DNA of 64,000 nt, taken from positions 780 through 64,779 of the forward strand of contig JBDRFE010000060.1 in assembly GCA_043819075.1 (NCBI GenBank), given 5' to 3'. Positions within the stretch are counted from its first letter, which is position 1; each line of letters starts with the position of its first letter. The translations under genes and the position numbers were made by a program. Source of the DNA: an archaeon. GTDB lineage: Archaea > Iainarchaeota > Iainarchaeia > Iainarchaeales > 1-14-0-10-31-34. Shown here in pieces: positions 5,494 to 59,090 of the stretch. The notes beneath the pieces are model-generated. The model saw only the letters and a program-made list of their open reading frames with translations. It ran no database searches and had not been told where the DNA came from.

Positions 5494-5569
5494 GCCGCCG
5501 TAGCATAGCTTGGTTTTATGCAGCGGTTTCGTAAACCGCAGATCGTGGGTTCAAATCCCATCGGCGGCT
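5494..5569 (+). tRNA. tRNA-Thr (anticodon CGT)
   Basis: Cloverleaf folds by hand: acceptor GCCGCCG/CGGCGGC, anticodon stem GCGGT/ACCGC, loop TTCGTAA, T-arm GTGGG-TTCAAAT-CCCAT. Confidence 0.8.
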
Positions 5570-5634
5570 ATCAGTCTTTTTCACTGGCAATGCGGTTTCC
5601 ACCAAAATAAAAACCATTAAAACGAAATATTTCA

Positions 5635-6657
5635 ATGCGTTATAATCGAATCGGGTTTTTTTCTGCAGAAGACAGGACCTTGTTTTTTGAAATTGGGAAA
5701 CAAGTGCTCTACTGTGATTCTTGGAAACAATTCTGTGCGAAAGTAGGTATTCAAAAATCGATGGCTGAATACTATCGTAATGGTAAACTTTTATTGCCGG
5801 AATGGCTATTTCTTAATTTGTCAGAAAAATTTTCTTCCGAAAAAAGAGCTTTTTTTAAATCAAAAATTTTTTTGAAACCGCCCAATTGGGGTGAGAGTAT
5901 TGGCGGTAGAAAAACATCAGCCTCCCATCCAGAATTTATTGTAGCTGCGCGTGCGTCTGCAAGGGAAAAGTTTTCGCGTCTTCCAAGGAACTGTTTTGAT
6001 TTAAATCAAGAACTGTCTTGTGAGTTGTGTGAATTTGTTGGCGCTTTTATGGGGGATGGCCACACAGGTTTATATGGCAGCCATACAATAGTCGGGTTTA
6101 CTGGGCATGCCAAACTTGATGATGATTATTATTATAGAACCATTATTCCAGCAGTAAAGAAATTGTTCCACATTGAAACTTGTTATGTCTGGAAAAAAGA
6201 AAACATAATGCGTGTTACTTTTCATTCAAAAAGACTCGTTGAATTGTTGATTAAACGATTTGGTTTTCCTACTGGAGTCAAATTTGATAAGATTCTGATT
6301 CCGGAAGAAATTTTGCATTCTTCAAACGAACACATTGCGGCAGTATTGCGCGGACTTTTTGATACTGATGGATGCGTTTTCTTTGATAAGAGAAAAATCT
6401 ACCGTAATCCCTATATGAGATTTAATCTGACAATGTATAATCCCCAAATTCTGGATCAGGTAGTTCAGGCACTTGCCAAAATAGGTATTCATGCTTCCAG
6501 AGCTAATTCCAAAAGAAGCATTCAAATCACCAACAGCCAGAATATTGAAGGTTTTCTCAGGTCTGTTGGGTTTTCAAACACAAGGCACATAAGCAAAGTT
6601 CTGCAGGCATATCCTGACTTTAACTCTTTTAACCCCGGAACAAGATTGACTTCGTAA
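5635..6657 (+). CDS. free-standing LAGLIDADG homing endonuclease with N-terminal HTH
   Basis: Two LAGLIDADG motifs (FVGAFMGDGHT and LRGLFDTDGCV); not embedded in an intein or rRNA. Confidence 0.75.
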   Translation: MRYNRIGFFSAEDRTLFFEIGKQVLYCDSWKQFCAKVGIQKSMAEYYRNGKLLLPEWLFLNLSEKFSSEKRAFFKSKIFLKPPNWGESIGGRKTSASHPEFIVAARASAREKFSRLPRNCFDLNQELSCELCEFVGAFMGDGHTGLYGSHTIVGFTGHAKLDDDYYYRTIIPAVKKLFHIETCYVWKKENIMRVTFHSKRLVELLIKRFGFPTGVKFDKILIPEEILHSSNEHIAAVLRGLFDTDGCVFFDKRKIYRNPYMRFNLTMYNPQILDQVVQALAKIGIHASRANSKRSIQITNSQNIEGFLRSVGFSNTRHISKVLQAYPDFNSFNPGTRLTS

Positions 6658-6693
6658 AGCGAAGGTCGGGGGTGCGATTCCCTCCAAGGGCTT
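6648..6693 (+). other. tRNA 3'-half-like fragment (anticodon-loop 3' part through acceptor 3' strand)
   Basis: TTCGTAAA-GCGAA-GGTC-GGGGG-TGCGATT-CCCTC-CAAGGGC-T parallels tRNA-Thr positions 32-73; oligo-T follows; no matching 5' half (GCCCTTG) nearby. Confidence 0.5.
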
Positions 6694-26741: not shown

Positions 26742-28469
26742 TCATTTTTTTCTTGTTAATAACAGAACACTAAATAAAACCACTAAAACGAATGCAGGGT
26801 TTATTTCTGGTGCTTCGACTGATGGAATGGTTGTTGGCCCTAATTCGATTATTTTGTATCCTGAGTTGTTTGTTTTGTTTTGTTCTGGGATTTGTTCTTC
26901 TGGAATGTAGTATGGTTCTCCGTCGTCCCAGTATGCGCTGTTTGGGTTTGTTGGGTTAACATAGTATTCTGGTGAGGATTCGACTTCATTGCTTACAACT
27001 AAAAATTCTATTTTGTAGTTGTTTCTTTCAAAAAAATCATAACTGCTTAAATCAATGTTTAAGTCGTATTCTTCAAAGTCAGGTGAATTAAAGGTTAAAT
27101 AGAATGGGCTTGGGCCGTATATTGCTTGGTGTGTTGTTGCGTCGCTTATTATGATGAATGCTTTTGCGTTCACTGGTTGTGAAATAAAGTAATTTACTTT
27201 TGCTTTAACCCTTATTTTTCCGTTGACTGCGAATCTTCCAGCTGGTTCAACTGGAATTAATTCAAAGTTTGAGATAGAGAAAACGTCTGCTGTGATTGGT
27301 TTAATGCTGATTTCAATTGAGTCTCTTGTTGTGTTTGTGTCTGTGGTTACTGTAAAAGAAATGTTGTGGTCTCCGATGCTTAAGCCTGAGTATGAAAGGT
27401 TTTCGTCTGTTGGATTCCAGCCTGTGTCTTTGTTTGAATCCCATTGAACTGTATAAGCGCTTGAGCTTGAAATGTTTGATTTAAAGTTGATTGTTGTTCC
27501 GACAAAAAAATTGTTTCCGTCAAACGGAGTTAAAATTGATGCATTCAAAAATGTTTCTGGTTCTGCCGGAGGAGGCTCTGTTATTGTAATGTTTCGGGAA
27601 TTTGAGTTGCTTCCATAAAGGCTTCCGACAACGCTTGTTGAAGTTGGTGCATCATCTGGCCTTACAAAAATACAGTAGTTTCCTGCAGGAATTGATGGAA
27701 TAGTCCAGTTATATGTTTTTGCGCCAGCTGTTTGGTATGCTGTTGAATAAAAGTTTGTTCCTGCACCAAGAGTGCAGTTGCTTTGAGGGGCATAATATAA
27801 TTGGGAGCGGATGTTGTCATTGTTTGCATCGCTTGTGTTCCATGCAATTGTAAGTTGTTGTCCTTGTTCTCTTGATGTTCCGTTTGAGGGAGCAGTTAAT
27901 GTTGCAATTGGCGGAAAATTCATCAAAAAACTTTTTCCTGTGCTTAGATACTTTGTTGTTGGATTAATGTTTGTGCCTGTCACAACCATTCTCAGCCTGT
28001 AAATTGTATCTGGAGAGCCAGTATAAGTGTTAATCATCCAAGCAGGGTAATATCCTGAACCCCAAGTCCATGTAGCACCGGTTGCAAGGCTTGCTATAGT
28101 GTATGCTTCTGTGCCTCCTGGATAAGTTGAAAACATTTTATATCCTGTTAGAGGAACACTAGTAATATTTAGGTTTTGGTAGTTAGAGCAATTTATTCCC
28201 TGGCAGTATTGCAGTCTTGCTGTCAGGTTAAGGCATGGGCCAGTATTGCACACTAGGTTAAGGGCGATGTAAGGATATGGATTGTAATCTCTAAGAAGAG
28301 TTGTTGTTGGAGAACGCCAGGTTAGTGTAACTGTTGCATAACTGTCTCCATCTATTATGTCTCCAGTGTCTTCTCCAGAGTCAAGTGGGTCTCCTTCAGC
28401 TGCATTAACTGAACTAAACAAAAGCATGAAAAAAATAGCCAATAAAAATAATTGTGTTTTTTTGTTCAT
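26742..28469 (-). CDS. large cell-surface glycoprotein with C-terminal TM anchor
   Basis: Signal peptide, many N-x-S/T sequons, C-terminal hydrophobic stretch followed by RKK. Confidence 0.5.
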   Translation of the reverse strand: MNKKTQLFLLAIFFMLLFSSVNAAEGDPLDSGEDTGDIIDGDSYATVTLTWRSPTTTLLRDYNPYPYIALNLVCNTGPCLNLTARLQYCQGINCSNYQNLNITSVPLTGYKMFSTYPGGTEAYTIASLATGATWTWGSGYYPAWMINTYTGSPDTIYRLRMVVTGTNINPTTKYLSTGKSFLMNFPPIATLTAPSNGTSREQGQQLTIAWNTSDANNDNIRSQLYYAPQSNCTLGAGTNFYSTAYQTAGAKTYNWTIPSIPAGNYCIFVRPDDAPTSTSVVGSLYGSNSNSRNITITEPPPAEPETFLNASILTPFDGNNFFVGTTINFKSNISSSSAYTVQWDSNKDTGWNPTDENLSYSGLSIGDHNISFTVTTDTNTTRDSIEISIKPITADVFSISNFELIPVEPAGRFAVNGKIRVKAKVNYFISQPVNAKAFIIISDATTHQAIYGPSPFYLTFNSPDFEEYDLNIDLSSYDFFERNNYKIEFLVVSNEVESSPEYYVNPTNPNSAYWDDGEPYYIPEEQIPEQNKTNNSGYKIIELGPTTIPSVEAPEINPAFVLVVLFSVLLLTRKK

Positions 28470-28580: not shown

Positions 28581-28772
28581 ATGGGTTTAACTGATATGTT
28601 TAAGAAAAAAGAAGAAGAAAAACAGGAACCAAAAGAAGCTGTTCCAGAAGGAAAATACAATCAGGCTTGCGCTTTATGCGGAGCAGAAGGAACAGAAAAA
28701 AAGTGGGCTGGACAGTACTGGCACAAAAAATGCATGAGAAAATCTCGGAAGATGGCTCGTGGAATGTTTTAA
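28581..28772 (+). CDS. small Cys-containing protein
   Basis: ORF with CALC...KKC. Confidence 0.25.
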   Translation: MGLTDMFKKKEEEKQEPKEAVPEGKYNQACALCGAEGTEKKWAGQYWHKKCMRKSRKMARGMF

Positions 28773-28838
28773 GAATTAATTAACACTGGCAGTCTACTGT
28801 CTCAAAGCTTTTTTATACGCTAAAAACAAAATCTTATT

Positions 28839-30011
28839 GTGAATAAAGTAATTGTTGACCAGAAAAAGTTTCTTTCAATGTTCTCCAAAAAAGATAGAAA
28901 AAATTCAAGAAAGTATTTTAAAGCAGTTAATTTATTTAATAAAATTAAAAACAAATCTGAAATTGCAGAAATTATCGAACAACCAGGAAGAACTGTAAAT
29001 AATTGGTTAAATAAAGAAAAAACTCCTTCTGCCATAAGGGCCATTAATCAGTTAAAGGCAAATAATCTTCTCCCTTTAATAAATGATGAAACTTCAGACT
29101 CTTTTAATTTGTTTGTTGACGTTTTTGCTTTTGTTTTTGGTGATGGTTCAATAAAAAAAGATTTTTCAGGAATTGATTTGTTTGGGCAGGAAAAAGATTT
29201 GATTTTATTAAAAGATAAACTTGACAGAGTTTTTAGTTTTAATAGTAAAATAACTTTAAGTCAAACGCCTGGAAAAATAACAAAGAAAAATAACGGTGTT
29301 GCTTATACAAAGATTGTTAATGGATCTTGTTATAGATTAAGCATTAATTCCGTACAACTTTCCAAACTTTTGTATTTAGCAGGTGCGCCAAAGGGAGACA
29401 AAGTTGCTCAAAAAGTTTTAATTCCCTTTTGGCTTATGAGTTCTTCAAAAGAAACAAAAATGAGATTTTTAAGTGTTTTATTTGGAAACGAATTACAATG
29501 CCCTCAACTCAGAGCAAAAAATGCTTTTACGTCTTCACAATTCGGTTTGCATAAAATTGAAAGCAAGAAAAAGGAGTTGAAAACTTTCCTTGATCAGATA
29601 AAAATATTGCTTAATGAATTTGGAATTTCAACTTCTTCCATAGCTTTTGAAAAATGTAGGACAATAAGAAAAGACGGCAATCTTTCAATGAAACTTTATT
29701 TTCATATTGATTCTCATAGCCCAAATGTCTTGCGTTTGTTTAAAGAAATTCCATTTAAATACGCAGAAGAAAAACAAGAGAGATTTAGAACTGCTGTTAA
29801 GAAATTCTTAAAAAAATCTAGTTATTTGAATAATGAATGGATTTTATATGAAAAAGTAATGAAAATGCATTCTGAAGGTTTGGGAAGAAGAAAAATATTT
29901 AAAAAACTTGAATTGCCTAAAAAATATTTTTATAAAATAAATTCGTGGATTCATTATGGGCACAAACCATTGTATTTTGATGAAAAAAAGCATTTCTTTT
30001 TTACTTGTTAA
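28839..30011 (+). CDS. HTH-LAGLIDADG homing-endonuclease paralog (second motif degenerate)
   Basis: FVDVFAFVFGDGSI (motif 1) and MRFLSVLFGNE (motif 2, E for D); N-terminal HTH; GTG start, possibly ATG at 28878. Confidence 0.6.
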   Translation: MNKVIVDQKKFLSMFSKKDRKNSRKYFKAVNLFNKIKNKSEIAEIIEQPGRTVNNWLNKEKTPSAIRAINQLKANNLLPLINDETSDSFNLFVDVFAFVFGDGSIKKDFSGIDLFGQEKDLILLKDKLDRVFSFNSKITLSQTPGKITKKNNGVAYTKIVNGSCYRLSINSVQLSKLLYLAGAPKGDKVAQKVLIPFWLMSSSKETKMRFLSVLFGNELQCPQLRAKNAFTSSQFGLHKIESKKKELKTFLDQIKILLNEFGISTSSIAFEKCRTIRKDGNLSMKLYFHIDSHSPNVLRLFKEIPFKYAEEKQERFRTAVKKFLKKSSYLNNEWILYEKVMKMHSEGLGRRKIFKKLELPKKYFYKINSWIHYGHKPLYFDEKKHFFFTC

Positions 30012-30044
30012 AAATTTGAAAAGGCGCAAAAGGAATGTTTTAGT

Positions 30045-31082
30045 TCAGAATTTGTGTTCTTCTAGCTTAATTCCTTTTCCTTTAATTGTTTCGCCCAAGA
30101 TTACTGCCTGGGTATTAAACTTGTTTTTGAGTTCTGAAACAATTTTCTCTGAATCTTTTTCTGAAACAACTAACACCAATCCAATCCCCATATTGAATGC
30201 CCTGAACATTTCTTTTTCTTCAACGTTTCCTTTTTCTTTTAAAAACCTGAAAATGAACTGAACCTTAATTCTTTTAATGAAAATTTTTGCTCCAATTCCT
30301 TCTGGAAAAATTCTCGGAAGATTGTCAATCAGCCCTCCGCCGGTAATGTGTGCAATTCCTTTTAATTCAAATTTTTCTTTTAAGTAATTGACTTCATTTA
30401 AATAACTTTTATGTATTTTCAGCAGTTCTTTTCCTAAAGTAGAGTTTGTTTCAACAAAGTGCTCGTTTAAGCTTAACTGTTTTTCCTGAATTATTTTTCT
30501 TGCAAGAGAGTAACCGTTTGTATGCAATCCGTTTGAAGGCAGTCCAATCAATACATCGTTTTCTTTTATTTTTTTGCCTGTAATTAATTTGTTTTTTTCT
30601 GCCACCCCAATAATTGTTCCTGCGACGTCTACCTCGTTTTCCTTGTATGTTCCAGGCATTTCAGCGGTTTCCCCTGCAATTAATGCAATTTTTTGTTGTT
30701 TGCAGGCAATGCTCATTCCTTCAACTATTTTTTCAATTATTTCTGGTTCAAGTTTTGCTGAAGCAATATAGTCAAGGAATGCAATTGGTTCCGCGCCATG
30801 GCATAAAATGTCGTTAACTGAATGGTTCACTAAATCCTGGCCGATTGTAGTCCATTCATTTAATTGTTTTGCAATCATTATTTTTGTGCCGACTCCGTCA
30901 ATGCTTGCAAGCAATACAGGGTTATTCATTTTCTTTATTTTTTTTAAGTCAATTGCCCCTGCAAACAGCCCTGCGTCAAGCATTACGCTTTCATTGAATG
31001 TTGCTTTAACATGTTTTTTTATTCTTGCAACAGCCTGGTTTCCTTTGTCAATGTTTACTCCTGCATCAGAATAATTTGTCAT
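30045..31082 (-). CDS. purM: phosphoribosylformylglycinamidine cyclo-ligase (AIR synthetase)
   Basis: ASIDGVGTKIMIA and DILCHGAEPIAFLDY motifs; start at ATG 31082. Confidence 0.85.
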   Translation of the reverse strand: MTNYSDAGVNIDKGNQAVARIKKHVKATFNESVMLDAGLFAGAIDLKKIKKMNNPVLLASIDGVGTKIMIAKQLNEWTTIGQDLVNHSVNDILCHGAEPIAFLDYIASAKLEPEIIEKIVEGMSIACKQQKIALIAGETAEMPGTYKENEVDVAGTIIGVAEKNKLITGKKIKENDVLIGLPSNGLHTNGYSLARKIIQEKQLSLNEHFVETNSTLGKELLKIHKSYLNEVNYLKEKFELKGIAHITGGGLIDNLPRIFPEGIGAKIFIKRIKVQFIFRFLKEKGNVEEKEMFRAFNMGIGLVLVVSEKDSEKIVSELKNKFNTQAVILGETIKGKGIKLEEHKF

Positions 31083-31090
31083 TTTTTCAC

Positions 31091-31762
31091 TCAAAGAATT
31101 TTTGTTTCGGTTTTTGTCCCGATAATTACGGTGCAAGGCCTTGTAAAAACGCCGTTTGCTTTTACTCCAATAATTGAATCAAGTTGTTTTTCAAGTTTTT
31201 TTGCGTTCTCTATTGGAGTATGCAATTGCATTGAAATAATATAGTTTTTGTTTTCTGTTTCCAAGGGCATGCATTTGTTTGAAACCTGGACTATTTCTGC
31301 TTCAAATGAATCGCTTAAATGCTTTAATATCTTGAAAGTCATTGCAGGCTCGACTTCAATTAAAATTTCTCCGGTTAATTGCTTTAATAATTTGCTTTCA
31401 TCAGCTATTACAATAAATTTTTCTGCTTTGTAGTCAATTTTTTTTTCTTTCAGGAAAGCATACATTGAATTTCCTTTTAGGAGTTCTTTTTTCCTGTTAA
31501 TCTGGTCTGCGCCGTCAACTGCAATGTCTATTCTGTCAACTGAATCAAATCCTGCTACTTTCAATCCTGAGTCAATTGCAAGGCCGGCTGTTTTGTTTGA
31601 AGTTGCAACACAGATTAAATTCATGTTTTCTTTTTTGTTTTTTTCTGCAAGCTTTTTTACAAAAATTTCTGCGGTGCTGCCGCTTCCCAATCCTATTATC
31701 ATTCCTTTTTCAATTAATTCAACTGCTTTTATTGCAGCGTTTTCCTTCATTTTTTCTTTCAT
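31091..31762 (-). CDS. rpiA: ribose-5-phosphate isomerase A
   Basis: IIGLGSGSTA and DGADQI motifs. Confidence 0.8.
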   Translation of the reverse strand: MKEKMKENAAIKAVELIEKGMIIGLGSGSTAEIFVKKLAEKNKKENMNLICVATSNKTAGLAIDSGLKVAGFDSVDRIDIAVDGADQINRKKELLKGNSMYAFLKEKKIDYKAEKFIVIADESKLLKQLTGEILIEVEPAMTFKILKHLSDSFEAEIVQVSNKCMPLETENKNYIISMQLHTPIENAKKLEKQLDSIIGVKANGVFTRPCTVIIGTKTETKIL

Positions 31763-58962: not shown

Positions 58963-59090
58963 TGGGGACACTGGGAGTCGAACCCAGATTTCATGGTTGC
59001 TGCCTTTTTTAGAAAATTTTGTTTTTGATAAAACTTTTTTCTAAAAAGTTTTGTCTGGAGCCAAGCGGGATGCCATTACCCCATGTCCCC
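58963..59090 (-). tRNA. tRNA-Trp (anticodon CCA) with ~55-nt AT-rich intron in the anticodon loop
   Basis: Exon 1 GGGGACA..CTTGG-CTCCAG; exon 2 A-CCATG-AAAT-CTGGG-TTCGACT-CCCAG-TGTCCCC-A; one U.U mismatch in the anticodon stem. Confidence 0.6.

What the first reader, a model, noticed from the sequence alone, without database searches (positions are those of the whole stretch)
28839..30011. Second free-standing HTH-LAGLIDADG paralog with a degenerate catalytic motif
This 390-aa protein has the same architecture as the 5635-6657 protein. An N-terminal HTH (SEIAEIIEQPGRTVNNWL vs KQFCAKVGIQKSMAEYYRNGK) is followed by two LAGLIDADG-type helices. The second motif reads LSVLFGNE, with an acidic Asp replaced by Glu, and the gene starts at GTG. 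Two free-standing copies in 64 kb, outside inteins and rRNA introns, suggest either an active homing-endonuclease family or domestication as a DNA-binding regulator (cf. maturase or regulator-like LAGLIDADG proteins).
Basis: partly seen in the sequence, partly recalled or inferred. Interest (0 to 1): 0.55.

Follow-up and report, generated by a model that had tools for sequence, protein, structure and literature searches.

The report
Archaeal homing-endonuclease cassette in gene tail
The 390-aa gene is a catalytically intact LAGLIDADG homing endonuclease with DNA-binding helix-turn-helix domains at both ends, carried on a 1.27-kb optional cassette that sits inside the 3' end of a small conserved zinc-protein gene of Iainarchaeia (DPANN archaea) and supplies a replacement tail for that gene, an arrangement so far described mainly in fungal mitochondria.

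Summary
The ORF (28839-30011, GTG start, 390 aa) is real. It has a confident LAGLIDADG fold (AF2 pLDDT 93; Foldseek matches to I-Tsp061I, PI-SceI, I-AniI). HTH domains flank the core at both ends.

The "degenerate" second motif is not degenerate. D102 and E218 are invariant in orthologs, and Glu is the norm across the wider clade. The active enzyme I-DmoI uses the same Asp/Glu pair.

The gene is not a close paralog of 5635-6657 (BLAST E=0.39; profile-profile E=5.6e-4).

The gene is not merely intergenic. It always lies directly downstream of a 63-aa CCHC zinc-protein gene ("Zn63", 28581-28772). The flank 30012-30043 is a displaced copy of Zn63's last codons (KGAKGMF*). The cassette (28740-30011) therefore sits 33 nt before the original Zn63 stop and brings its own replacement tail and promoter.

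Of 53 independent Zn63 loci, 6 carry the gene intact, 2 carry internally deleted copies and 45 are empty. Some empty loci belong to close relatives with otherwise identical synteny.

Best reading: a mobile or recently mobile free-standing homing-endonuclease cassette that targets Zn63, like mitochondrial "mORF" elements. It is not a domesticated regulator. The second LAGLIDADG gene has the same anatomy at tRNA-Thr(CGT).

The parts
28581..28772 (+). Zn63: a 63-aa conserved CCHC (C30, C33, H48, C51) lysine-rich zinc-protein gene. It is the host/target gene. In this genome it is a hybrid of native body (to codon R53) plus cassette-borne tail.
   Evidence: ORF. 331 homologs in Diapherotrites/Iainarchaeum MAGs. 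Alignment A5 with its invariant columns. Directly upstream of the endonuclease gene in 19 of 19 loci that have upstream sequence.
28740..28772 (+). Replacement Zn63 tail carried by the cassette (KSRKMARGMF*). It is recoded relative to the tails of empty-site relatives (KARKSAKGMF*, KARKGAKGMM*).
   Evidence: It matches empty-site tails at 16-18 of 27 nt, whereas the displaced remnant matches them at 21 of 27.
28773..28838 (+). Cassette spacer with a conserved promoter-like element: GGCAGT...GTCTCAAAGCTTTTTTATA. The TATA-like box lies at 28811-28817, about 25 nt before the GTG, which implies a leaderless mRNA.
   Evidence: Conserved among occupied loci (window, L001, L008, L020, L027, L030, L069) and absent from the empty site L025. 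The promoter role is inferred from archaeal TATA spacing and was not tested.
28839..30011 (+). HTH-LAGLIDADG-HTH homing endonuclease gene, 390 aa, GTG start.
28887..29060 (+). N-terminal helical/HTH domain (residues 17-74).
   Evidence: AF2 helices 17-33, 39-46, 50-57, 64-74. HTH_SB, HTH_23 and HTH_7 hits in orthologs.
29097..29747 (+). Double LAGLIDADG core (residues 87-303). Motif 1 is VFAFVFGDG (29121-29147, catalytic D102). Motif 2 is LSVLFGNEL (29469-29495, catalytic E218).
   Evidence: NCBIfam RtcB_rel_intein endonuclease region, E=5.6e-28.
29766..29993 (+). C-terminal HTH domain (residues 310-385; GLGRRKIFKKLELPKKYFYKINSWIHYGHKPLYF).
   Evidence: AF2 helices 310-326, 328-345, 350-357, 362-372. 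Strongly conserved block. Weak match to the gamma-delta resolvase HTH. HTH_23 hits at the equivalent place in intein-borne relatives.
30012..30043 (+). Displaced native 3' end of Zn63 (reads KGAKGMF* from 30020). A non-functional remnant that ends 1 nt before the purM stop, exactly as the live Zn63 tail does at the empty site L025.
   Evidence: (p=0.001).
30045..31136 (-). purM (AIR synthase), the convergent downstream host gene. It marks the right boundary and is not part of the element.

Best explanation
The ORF encodes a monomeric, two-motif LAGLIDADG homing endonuclease with accessory helix-turn-helix domains at both ends. It belongs to a clade that Pfam's LAGLIDADG models miss for this protein and that otherwise occurs mostly as the nuclease module of archaeal inteins.

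In Iainarchaeia it is carried on a self-contained cassette of about 1.27 kb (window 28740-30011). The cassette holds a replacement tail for the host gene, a promoter spacer and the endonuclease ORF. It is inserted after the invariant Arg53 codon of a small conserved zinc-protein gene (Zn63), 33 nt before that gene's original stop. The native tail is pushed downstream as a remnant (30012-30043).

Proposed mechanism (inferred). The enzyme recognises the conserved 3' coding sequence of an unoccupied Zn63 allele, with the HTH domains extending the contact. It cuts with the D102/E218 metal site. Recombinational repair from an occupied allele then copies the cassette in. The recoded replacement tail keeps Zn63 functional and splits or alters the recognition site, so occupied alleles are immune. 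The cassette is later lost by deletion, which gives the observed mix of intact, decayed and empty sites.

Shown here: the fold, conservation of the catalytic residues, the exact-site presence/absence/decay polymorphism and the tail duplication. Inferred: cleavage activity, target identity and current mobility.
For: Fold and active site.
- AF2 pLDDT 93. Foldseek to LAGLIDADG enzymes at probability 1.00.
- D102 and E218 invariant in orthologs.
- Across 148 clade members: Asp in 141 of 143 at motif 1, Glu 126 plus Asp 17 of 144 at motif 2, and K188, K207, K239 conserved.

Relation to intein nucleases.
- NCBIfam RtcB intein model, E=5.6e-28.
- 1331 profile hits, many of them inside inteins of Hef-type helicases, RtcB, ribosomal protein S12 and Pus10.

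Fixed site.
- Zn63 lies directly upstream in 19 of 19 loci.

Optional gene.
- Zn63-first sampling of 53 loci gave 6 intact, 2 internally deleted and 45 empty.
- L024 and L025 have the same synteny and 70-76% identical neighbouring genes, but lack the gene.

Decay intermediates.
- L020/L032 lack residues 26-245. L030 keeps only the promoter, the GTG and the last roughly 41 codons. L016 is frameshifted.

Displaced tail.
- The motif [KR][KG]M[FILVM]* occurs within 45 nt after the stop in 6 of 14 loci, against 0.0013 expected per locus. L046 carries AAKKGAKKMI*.
- The remnant is closer to relatives' live tails than to its own genome's tail.
- The junction is the same, after R53, in deeply diverged lineages.

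Precedent.
- Fungal mitochondrial mORF elements have an inserted C-terminus, an endonuclease ORF and a displaced native C*-terminus (PMC3630166; PMC6279837).

Second case in the window.
- tRNA-Thr(CGT), then the LAGLIDADG gene, then a displaced tRNA 3' half.
Against: Endonuclease pairwise identity tracks host GatE identity (r=0.73), and no pair looks like a recent cross-lineage transfer. Transmission therefore appears largely vertical, or confined to close kin.

The protein is as conserved as GatE and more conserved than PGI. That is unusual for a purely selfish gene and leaves room for a host benefit.

No cleavage assay was possible and no target site was demonstrated.

The pattern of candidate 'immunity' substitutions is not clean. 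W47F was seen only in occupied alleles, and K50R was enriched in them. However, some empty alleles (L029, L044, L065) carry cassette-type variants, and the observations are not phylogenetically independent.

Remnants are undetectable in roughly half of the occupied loci.
Confidence: 0.72

Rival explanations
1. Domesticated host protein. An ex-homing endonuclease now serves the cell as a sequence-specific DNA-binding regulator (WhiA-like) or as a programmed nuclease (HO-like), possibly working with the adjacent Zn63 protein.
For: The protein is highly conserved: 43-78% identity across lineages, comparable to GatE and above PGI. It co-diverges with host genes. It has its own conserved promoter. 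It carries two HTH domains, as WhiA carries one (PMC3384342).
Against: It is absent from 45 of 53 Zn63 loci, including close relatives with identical synteny. Internally deleted and frameshifted copies exist. The catalytic Asp/Glu pair is retained, unlike in WhiA. The duplicated host-gene tail marks an insertion event, not an operon partner.
Confidence: 0.13
2. Immobile relic. A single ancient insertion into Zn63 is now only being inherited vertically and lost by deletion, with the endonuclease no longer homing.
For: Endonuclease and GatE identities are congruent. Many sites are empty or decayed.
Against: Intact ORFs of 380-430 codons with invariant catalytic residues persist across lineages down to 43% identity. 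This requires purifying selection on the protein. The short non-coding remnants still match lineage-specific live tails: KGMF, RKMI and KGMI types each sit in their own clade, and one remnant is 29/33 nt identical to a tail from another species. An ancient neutral remnant should have decayed beyond recognition.
Confidence: 0.12
3. Intein remnant. The ORF is what is left of an intein that once interrupted a flanking host protein.
For: The closest relatives outside the family are intein nuclease modules. In L001 the remnant tail happens to be in frame with the ORF.
Against: There are no Hint/Intein_splicing blocks: no Pfam hit at E<=1, and the NCBIfam match covers only model positions 217-491, the nuclease part. 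The gene has its own start codon and promoter and a stop codon before the remnant. The remnant is out of frame in the window. Zn63 has its own stop 66 nt upstream.
Confidence: 0.02

Closest known systems
Mobile ORF (mORF) elements of fungal mitochondria (Allomyces macrogynus atp6; Glomus atp6/atp9/cox2/nad3; Endoconidiophora cob/atp6)
   Same: The anatomy is the same: host gene body, then an inserted replacement C-terminus in phase, then an endonuclease ORF, then the displaced native C*-terminus. In both cases the native remnant is more similar to relatives' genes than the inserted tail is (PMC3630166, PMC6279837).
   Different: The host here is the chromosome of a DPANN archaeon, not an organelle. 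The duplicated tail is only about 33 nt. The ORF is not fused to the host gene and has its own promoter and GTG start. The endonuclease is an HTH-flanked, intein-type LAGLIDADG. No sign of recent interspecific transfer was found.
Intein-encoded LAGLIDADG endonucleases (PI-SceI, TliVMA intein; inteins in archaeal RtcB, Hef-type helicase, ribosomal protein S12, Pus10)
   Same: The nuclease core is the same by structure and by sequence profile. Some Hef-type helicase inteins contain the whole HTH-LAGLIDADG-HTH module (profile positions 2-376).
   Different: There is no Hint splicing domain. The gene is not in frame within a host protein. It is expressed as a separate gene.
Archaeal intron-encoded LAGLIDADG enzymes (I-Tsp061I, I-DmoI)
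   Same: I-Tsp061I is the best structural match. I-DmoI has the same monomeric two-motif design and the same Asp/Glu catalytic pair (D20/E117, PMC3384342).
   Different: Those enzymes are about 190-200 aa, lack HTH domains and sit in rRNA introns. This one is 390 aa with two extra DNA-binding domains and sits in a protein-gene tail.
WhiA/DUF199 (bacterial LAGLIDADG-derived regulator)
   Same: A LAGLIDADG scaffold tethered to a C-terminal HTH domain.
   Different: [quoted passage not shown] This protein keeps them and is present at only about 11% of host loci.
Free-standing phage homing endonucleases (T4 seg/mob, F-CphI): 'intronless homing'
   Same: A stand-alone endonuclease gene sits next to a conserved target gene, shows presence/absence polymorphism between related genomes, and is inferred to spread by co-conversion of flanking sequence (from my own knowledge of that literature; F-CphI is cited in PMC6279837 and PMC6083498).
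   Different: Those enzymes are GIY-YIG, HNH or EndoVII types that sit between genes without duplicating a gene end.

Membership tests
LAGLIDADG homing endonucleases (monomeric, two-motif) | [quoted passage not shown] | tested here: met
   AF2 pLDDT 93, pTM 0.88, with helices 87-100 and 204-218 each followed by beta hairpins. Foldseek probability 1.00 to I-Tsp061I (E=5e-6), TliVMA intein, PI-SceI and I-AniI.
LAGLIDADG homing endonucleases (monomeric, two-motif) | Acidic residue at the C-terminal end of each LAGLIDADG helix (metal binding) | tested here: met
   D102 and E218 are invariant in 24 orthologs. Across 148 representatives: Asp in 141 of 143, and Glu 126 plus Asp 17 of 144. I-DmoI uses D20/E117.
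LAGLIDADG homing endonucleases (monomeric, two-motif) | Match to curated sequence models (Pfam LAGLIDADG_1 / LAGLIDADG_3) | tested here: not met
   No Pfam hit at E<=1 for the window protein. Only 1 of 24 orthologs hits LAGLIDADG_3, at 8.6e-4. Homology is seen only through the NCBIfam intein model (5.6e-28) and a profile-profile match to a LAGLIDADG_3 family (E=5.6e-4).
LAGLIDADG homing endonucleases (monomeric, two-motif) | Site-specific double-strand cleavage of a long target | not testable with these tools
   Needs a biochemical assay. The candidate substrate is the empty-site Zn63 3' end.
LAGLIDADG homing endonucleases (monomeric, two-motif) | Homing signature: the same insertion site occupied, empty or decayed among related genomes | tested here: met
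   6 intact, 2 decayed and 45 empty among 53 Zn63 loci. Empty sites in close relatives L024 and L025. Deletion derivatives L020 and L030.
Mitochondrial-type mORF element (endonuclease ORF with C-terminal duplication of the host gene) | Inserted replacement C-terminus in phase with the host gene, followed by the endonuclease ORF | tested here: met
   Zn63 is intact, with tail KSRKMARGMF* encoded at 28740-28772, followed by the spacer and the ORF.
Mitochondrial-type mORF element (endonuclease ORF with C-terminal duplication of the host gene) | Displaced native C-terminus downstream of the ORF, more similar to relatives' native tails than the inserted tail is | tested here: met
   The remnant at 30012-30043 matches empty-site tails at 21 of 27 nt, against 16 of 27 for its own live tail. 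For L001 the figures are 24/27 and 29/33 against 15/27. Motif enrichment is 6 of 14 loci against 0.0013 expected per locus.
Mitochondrial-type mORF element (endonuclease ORF with C-terminal duplication of the host gene) | Demonstrated mobility or horizontal origin of the inserted tail | tested here: inconclusive
   The inserted tails of the window and L001 are divergent from empty-site tails. However, endonuclease identity co-varies with GatE identity (r=0.73) and no clear transfer event is visible.
Intein (Hint domain) or intein remnant | N- and C-terminal splicing blocks, in frame within a host protein | tested here: not met
   No Intein_splicing hit. The match to the intein model covers only the nuclease part, positions 217-491. 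The gene has separate start and stop codons, and the remnant is out of frame.
WhiA-like domesticated LAGLIDADG regulator | Loss of catalytic residues and uniform presence in the host clade | tested here: not met
   The catalytic residues are invariant. The gene is present at about 11% of host loci.

The most novel reading that the evidence does not exclude
Iainarchaeial (DPANN) chromosomes may host an active class of LAGLIDADG 'gene-tail replacement' homing cassettes. Each would cut the 3' part of a conserved gene and insert itself together with a recoded substitute 3' part. In this one 64-kb window the same anatomy appears at a protein gene (Zn63) and at tRNA-Thr(CGT). In the tRNA case the duplication starts in the anticodon loop. 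If active, such cassettes would be a direct, testable route to displaced tRNA halves, and therefore possibly to split or rearranged tRNA genes of the kind known in Nanoarchaeota. They would also be a source of long-site, HTH-extended meganucleases.
Probability: 0.2. Interest if true: 0.72.

Novelty: new variant of a known kind. Interest (0 to 1): 0.52.

Why it matters
It extends to an archaeal chromosome a mode of selfish-gene insertion that is documented for fungal mitochondria: an endonuclease ORF that brings a replacement gene end and displaces the native one. My literature searches found no archaeal or bacterial chromosomal description, although they covered only the held open-access library.

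It also defines a sizeable LAGLIDADG clade that Pfam does not recognise for this protein (1331 representatives). The clade has HTH domains on both sides of the nuclease core and is shared between inteins and free-standing genes. This bears on how inteins acquire or shed their nucleases, and on meganuclease engineering, because the recognition sites should be longer.

Practically, it warns annotators that conserved 'hypothetical proteins' next to small genes or tRNAs in DPANN MAGs can be mobile cassettes. It also warns that the 3' ends of the host genes may be chimeric.

Tried and rejected
- **Domestication, my working hypothesis early on.** Searches showed perfect synteny and conservation comparable to GatE. 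I rejected it as the main reading once Zn63-first sampling showed empty sites in close relatives, and decay intermediates turned up.
- **Intein remnant.** Rejected: no Hint blocks, and the gene has its own start and stop codons.
- **PDB sequence searches.** Single sequence and profile searches gave nothing significant. Only the fold comparison worked.
- **Taxonomy of distant free-standing relatives.** The listing of cluster members returned no names.
- **Horizontal transfer test.** Comparing endonuclease and GatE pairwise identity found no clear outliers. dN/dS was not attempted because synonymous sites are saturated at 70% protein identity.
- **'Immunity' substitutions in occupied Zn63 alleles.** W47F and K50R are suggestive, but the result is confounded by phylogeny and by some empty alleles that carry cassette-type variants.
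- **Rfam.** At gathering threshold it found only tRNAs in the window and nothing in the flanks.
Full report
**1. The observation**

The ORF at 28839-30011 (+ strand, GTG start, 390 aa) exists exactly as described. The quoted peptides are present: VFAFVFGDG is encoded at 29121-29147 and LSVLFGNEL at 29469-29495.

Pfam gives no hit for this protein even at E<=1. NCBIfam aligns residues 67-353 of the target to positions 217-491 of the 'intein-containing RtcB' model, which is the nuclease part, with E=5.6e-28.

An AlphaFold2 model built on 24 orthologs is confident (mean pLDDT 93, pTM 0.88). It shows three parts:
- an N-terminal helical/HTH domain (residues ~17-74);
- a C-terminal helical/HTH domain (310-385).

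Foldseek against the PDB returns LAGLIDADG enzymes as the only significant matches: I-Tsp061I at 5e-6, the TliVMA intein, PI-SceI and I-AniI, all at probability 1.00. Half of the orthologs hit transposase- or resolvase-type HTH models.

**2. The 'degenerate motif' and 'paralog' claims**

In 24 orthologs (33-73% identity) D102 in motif 1 and N217-E218 in motif 2 are invariant.

I aligned the 148 best representatives of an exhaustive profile search to the family model. Motif 1 has Asp in 141 of 143. Motif 2 has Glu in 126 and Asp in 17 of 144. K188, K207 and K239 are also conserved. The well-studied active enzyme I-DmoI uses exactly this Asp/Glu pair, D20/E117 (PMC3384342). Glu is therefore the normal state for this clade and not a sign of degeneration.

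The two LAGLIDADG proteins of the window are only remote relatives. BLASTP gives E=0.39. Profile-profile comparison gives E=5.6e-4 at 30% probability over the core. An AF2 model of the second protein (pLDDT 87) has a similar N-terminal HTH plus double core but no C-terminal HTH domain.

**3. Wider family**

The family profile finds 1331 cluster representatives at E<=1e-3 and 150 at E<=1e-30. Many are embedded in inteins of Hef-type helicases, RtcB, ribosomal protein S12 and Pus10. In several helicase inteins the match spans the whole HTH-LAGLIDADG-HTH module. More distant free-standing members of 370-390 aa lie at unrelated loci in other archaea. The module therefore moves between intein and stand-alone contexts.

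**4. Genomic context: first impression**

The 31 close orthologs all come from Diapherotrites/Iainarchaeum MAGs. In every locus with upstream sequence (19 of 19) the gene is preceded on the same strand by a 60-71-aa protein. This protein carries the invariant pattern C-x2-C-x14-H-x2-C. I call it 'Zn63' (window 28581-28772). GatE lies a few kb downstream.

Endonuclease identity to the window copy (43-78%) is similar to that of GatE (47-70%) and higher than that of PGI (37-39% in distant loci). Pairwise endonuclease and GatE identities correlate (Pearson r=0.73). On these data alone I first favoured a vertically inherited, domesticated gene.

**5. Genomic context: the turn**

Zn63 has about ten times more homolog clusters (331) than the endonuclease (31). 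All three Zn63 loci that I looked up independently of the endonuclease were empty. L024 and L025 have the same gene order as the window (Na/H exchanger, surface protein, Zn63, purM, rpiA, ROK, PGI, GatE), and their neighbouring proteins are 70-78% identical to the window's. In both, the Zn63 stop abuts purM with no endonuclease gene. L026 is the empty counterpart of L005.

A Zn63-first scan of metagenome contigs gave 53 distinct loci with at least 600 nt of downstream sequence:

| State of the site | Loci |
|---|---|
| Intact endonuclease gene | 6 |
| Internally deleted copy | 2 |
| Empty | 45 |

A profile HMM search of all ORFs in these loci finds nothing in the empty ones.

The decayed copies are informative.
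- L020/L032 retain codons 1-25 and 246-383.
- L030 retains the promoter spacer, the GTG and about the last 41 codons.
- L016 is frameshifted.
- L024 seems to keep a scrap of the spacer.

Occupied, decaying and empty versions of one exact site in related genomes are the classic signature of a homing-endonuclease gene.

**6. The flanks interrupt a host gene**

Immediately after the endonuclease stop the window reads ...AAAGGCGCAAAAGGAATGTTTTAG. This translates as KGAKGMF* (30020-30043) and ends 1 nt before the purM stop. At the empty site L025 the live Zn63 tail...AAAGGAGCTAAAGGAATGATGTAA (KGAKGMM*), ends 1 nt before the purM stop in exactly the same way.

L001 has NARKSAKGMF* directly after its endonuclease stop, 29 of 33 nt identical to the live tail of L024. 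L002, L009, L017, L019 and L046 carry GRKMI*, ARKMV*, GKGML*, GKGMI* and AAKKGAKKMI* respectively. Each is of the tail type of its own clade.

The motif [KR][KG]M[FILVM]* occurs within 45 nt after the stop in 6 of 14 distinct loci. The background expectation is 0.0013 per locus. Nucleotide-level tests give p<=0.003 in four loci.

The remnant is more similar to the live tails of empty-site relatives (21/27 for the window, 24/27 for L001) than to the live tail of its own genome (16/27 and 15/27). The live tails of the window and L001 (KSRKMARGMF*, KSKRMAKGMM*) diverge from the empty-site type KARK[SG]AKGM[FM]*.

The element is therefore window 28740-30011: replacement tail, a 66-nt spacer and the ORF. 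It is inserted after the invariant R53 codon, 33 nt before the original stop, and the native tail is displaced to 30012-30043. The junction is the same in deeply diverged lineages (window clade and L046 clade).

The spacer carries a conserved GGCAGT...GTCTCAAAGC(G/T)TTTTTATA element. Its TATA-like box lies about 25 nt before the GTG. By archaeal promoter geometry this implies a leaderless transcript. That is an inference and was not tested.

**7. Mechanism**

The best-supported explanation is a free-standing LAGLIDADG homing-endonuclease cassette that targets the conserved 3' coding region of Zn63. The cassette carries a recoded tail that keeps the host gene functional while splitting or altering the recognition site.

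Cleavage, the identity of the target and present-day mobility are all inferred. Three things argue for continuing selection on the nuclease and for turnover, rather than one ancient inert insertion:
- the intact ORFs;
- the invariant catalytic residues;
- the freshness of the short non-coding remnants.

Two things argue against frequent long-range transfer and leave some room for a host benefit:
- the endonuclease co-diverges with host genes;
- its conservation is unusually high.

Candidate 'immunity' substitutions in occupied alleles (W47F only in occupied alleles; K50R enriched) are suggestive but confounded.

**8. Comparison with what is known**

The anatomy matches the 'mobile ORF' elements of fungal mitochondria. 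Those consist of an inserted C-terminus, an endonuclease ORF and a displaced native C*-terminus, with the native remnant closer to relatives' genes. Examples are Allomyces atp6, Glomus atp6/atp9/cox2/nad3 (PMC3630166) and Endoconidiophora cob/atp6 (PMC6279837).

The differences are:
- an archaeal chromosome rather than an organelle;
- a very short duplication;
- a separately expressed ORF;
- an intein-type, HTH-flanked nuclease.

It is not an intein remnant, because it lacks Hint blocks and has its own start and stop codons. It is not WhiA-like, because the catalytic residues are kept and the gene is optional. Literature searches found no description of this arrangement in archaea. They covered only the held open-access library.

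**9. Second case in the same window**

The other LAGLIDADG gene (5635-6657) is preceded by an intact tRNA-Thr(CGT) at 5494-5569. It is followed by a 78%-identical copy of the tRNA's 3' half, from the anticodon loop to the T arm, at 6651-6682 against 5528-5559. This copy overlaps the gene's stop codon.

Its 54%-identical ortholog in L097 has the same layout. Both free-standing LAGLIDADG genes in this window therefore use the same 'replace the 3' part' strategy, which strengthens the interpretation.

**10. Verdict**

The feature is real. The feature is a new variant of a known kind: a LAGLIDADG homing cassette of mitochondrial mORF type in a DPANN archaeal chromosome, carrying a nuclease clade that Pfam does not recognise for this protein. 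Interest is moderate.

Noticed in passing
window 5494-6682: The second LAGLIDADG gene (5635-6657) has the same cassette anatomy at a tRNA. An intact tRNA-Thr(CGT) lies at 5494-5569 upstream. A displaced copy of the tRNA 3' half, 78% identical, lies at 6651-6682 (against 5528-5559), starts in the anticodon loop and overlaps the ORF stop. The remnant's acceptor-stem 3' strand (CAAGGGC) differs from that of the live tRNA (CGGCGGC). The ortholog in L097 (54% identity) shows the same layout.
   Followed up: partly
window 28581-28772 and alignment A5: Zn63 is an uncharacterised, very conserved 60-70-aa protein. It has an MGL.D start, a Lys/Glu-rich linker, the block GKY.E.CALCG..GTEKKW.GQYWHKKC.R and a basic tail. 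It has 331 homolog clusters in Diapherotrites/Iainarchaeum (one labelled Micrarchaeota) and no Pfam family. Its function is unknown. It is probably a zinc-knuckle nucleic-acid-binding protein.
   Followed up: partly
proteins P0032, P0086, P0096: Archaeal ribosomal protein S12 genes, and Pus10, RtcB and Hef-type helicase genes, carry inteins whose nuclease module belongs to this same HTH-LAGLIDADG-HTH clade. An intein in ribosomal protein S12 is an unusual host.
   Followed up: no
L021 6001-7161; L022 6001-7167: Distant free-standing members of the family (30-36% identity) sit at quite different loci in other archaea. One lies between amidohydrolase and AdoHcy hydrolase genes. Another lies between prefoldin and ribosomal protein L37ae genes. 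Whether they also displace a host-gene end was not examined.
   Followed up: no
window 58963-59090 (- strand): Rfam reports a tRNA match spanning 128 nt (47.4 bits), much longer than a normal tRNA. This suggests an intron-containing tRNA gene.
   Followed up: no
L003 3701-4720; L004 347-1432: A Cas12f1-like/TnpB (TNB domain) gene lies about 1.3 kb upstream of the Zn63-endonuclease pair in one Iainarchaeum lineage. It is another mobile-element gene in the same neighbourhood.
   Followed up: no
window 26742-28469 (- strand): A 575-aa predicted secreted or surface protein, with a signal peptide and a C-terminal membrane anchor, is rich in Asn/Thr/Ser. It lies directly upstream of Zn63 and evolves much faster (52-61% identity) than its neighbours (70-78%) in close relatives.
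   Followed up: no
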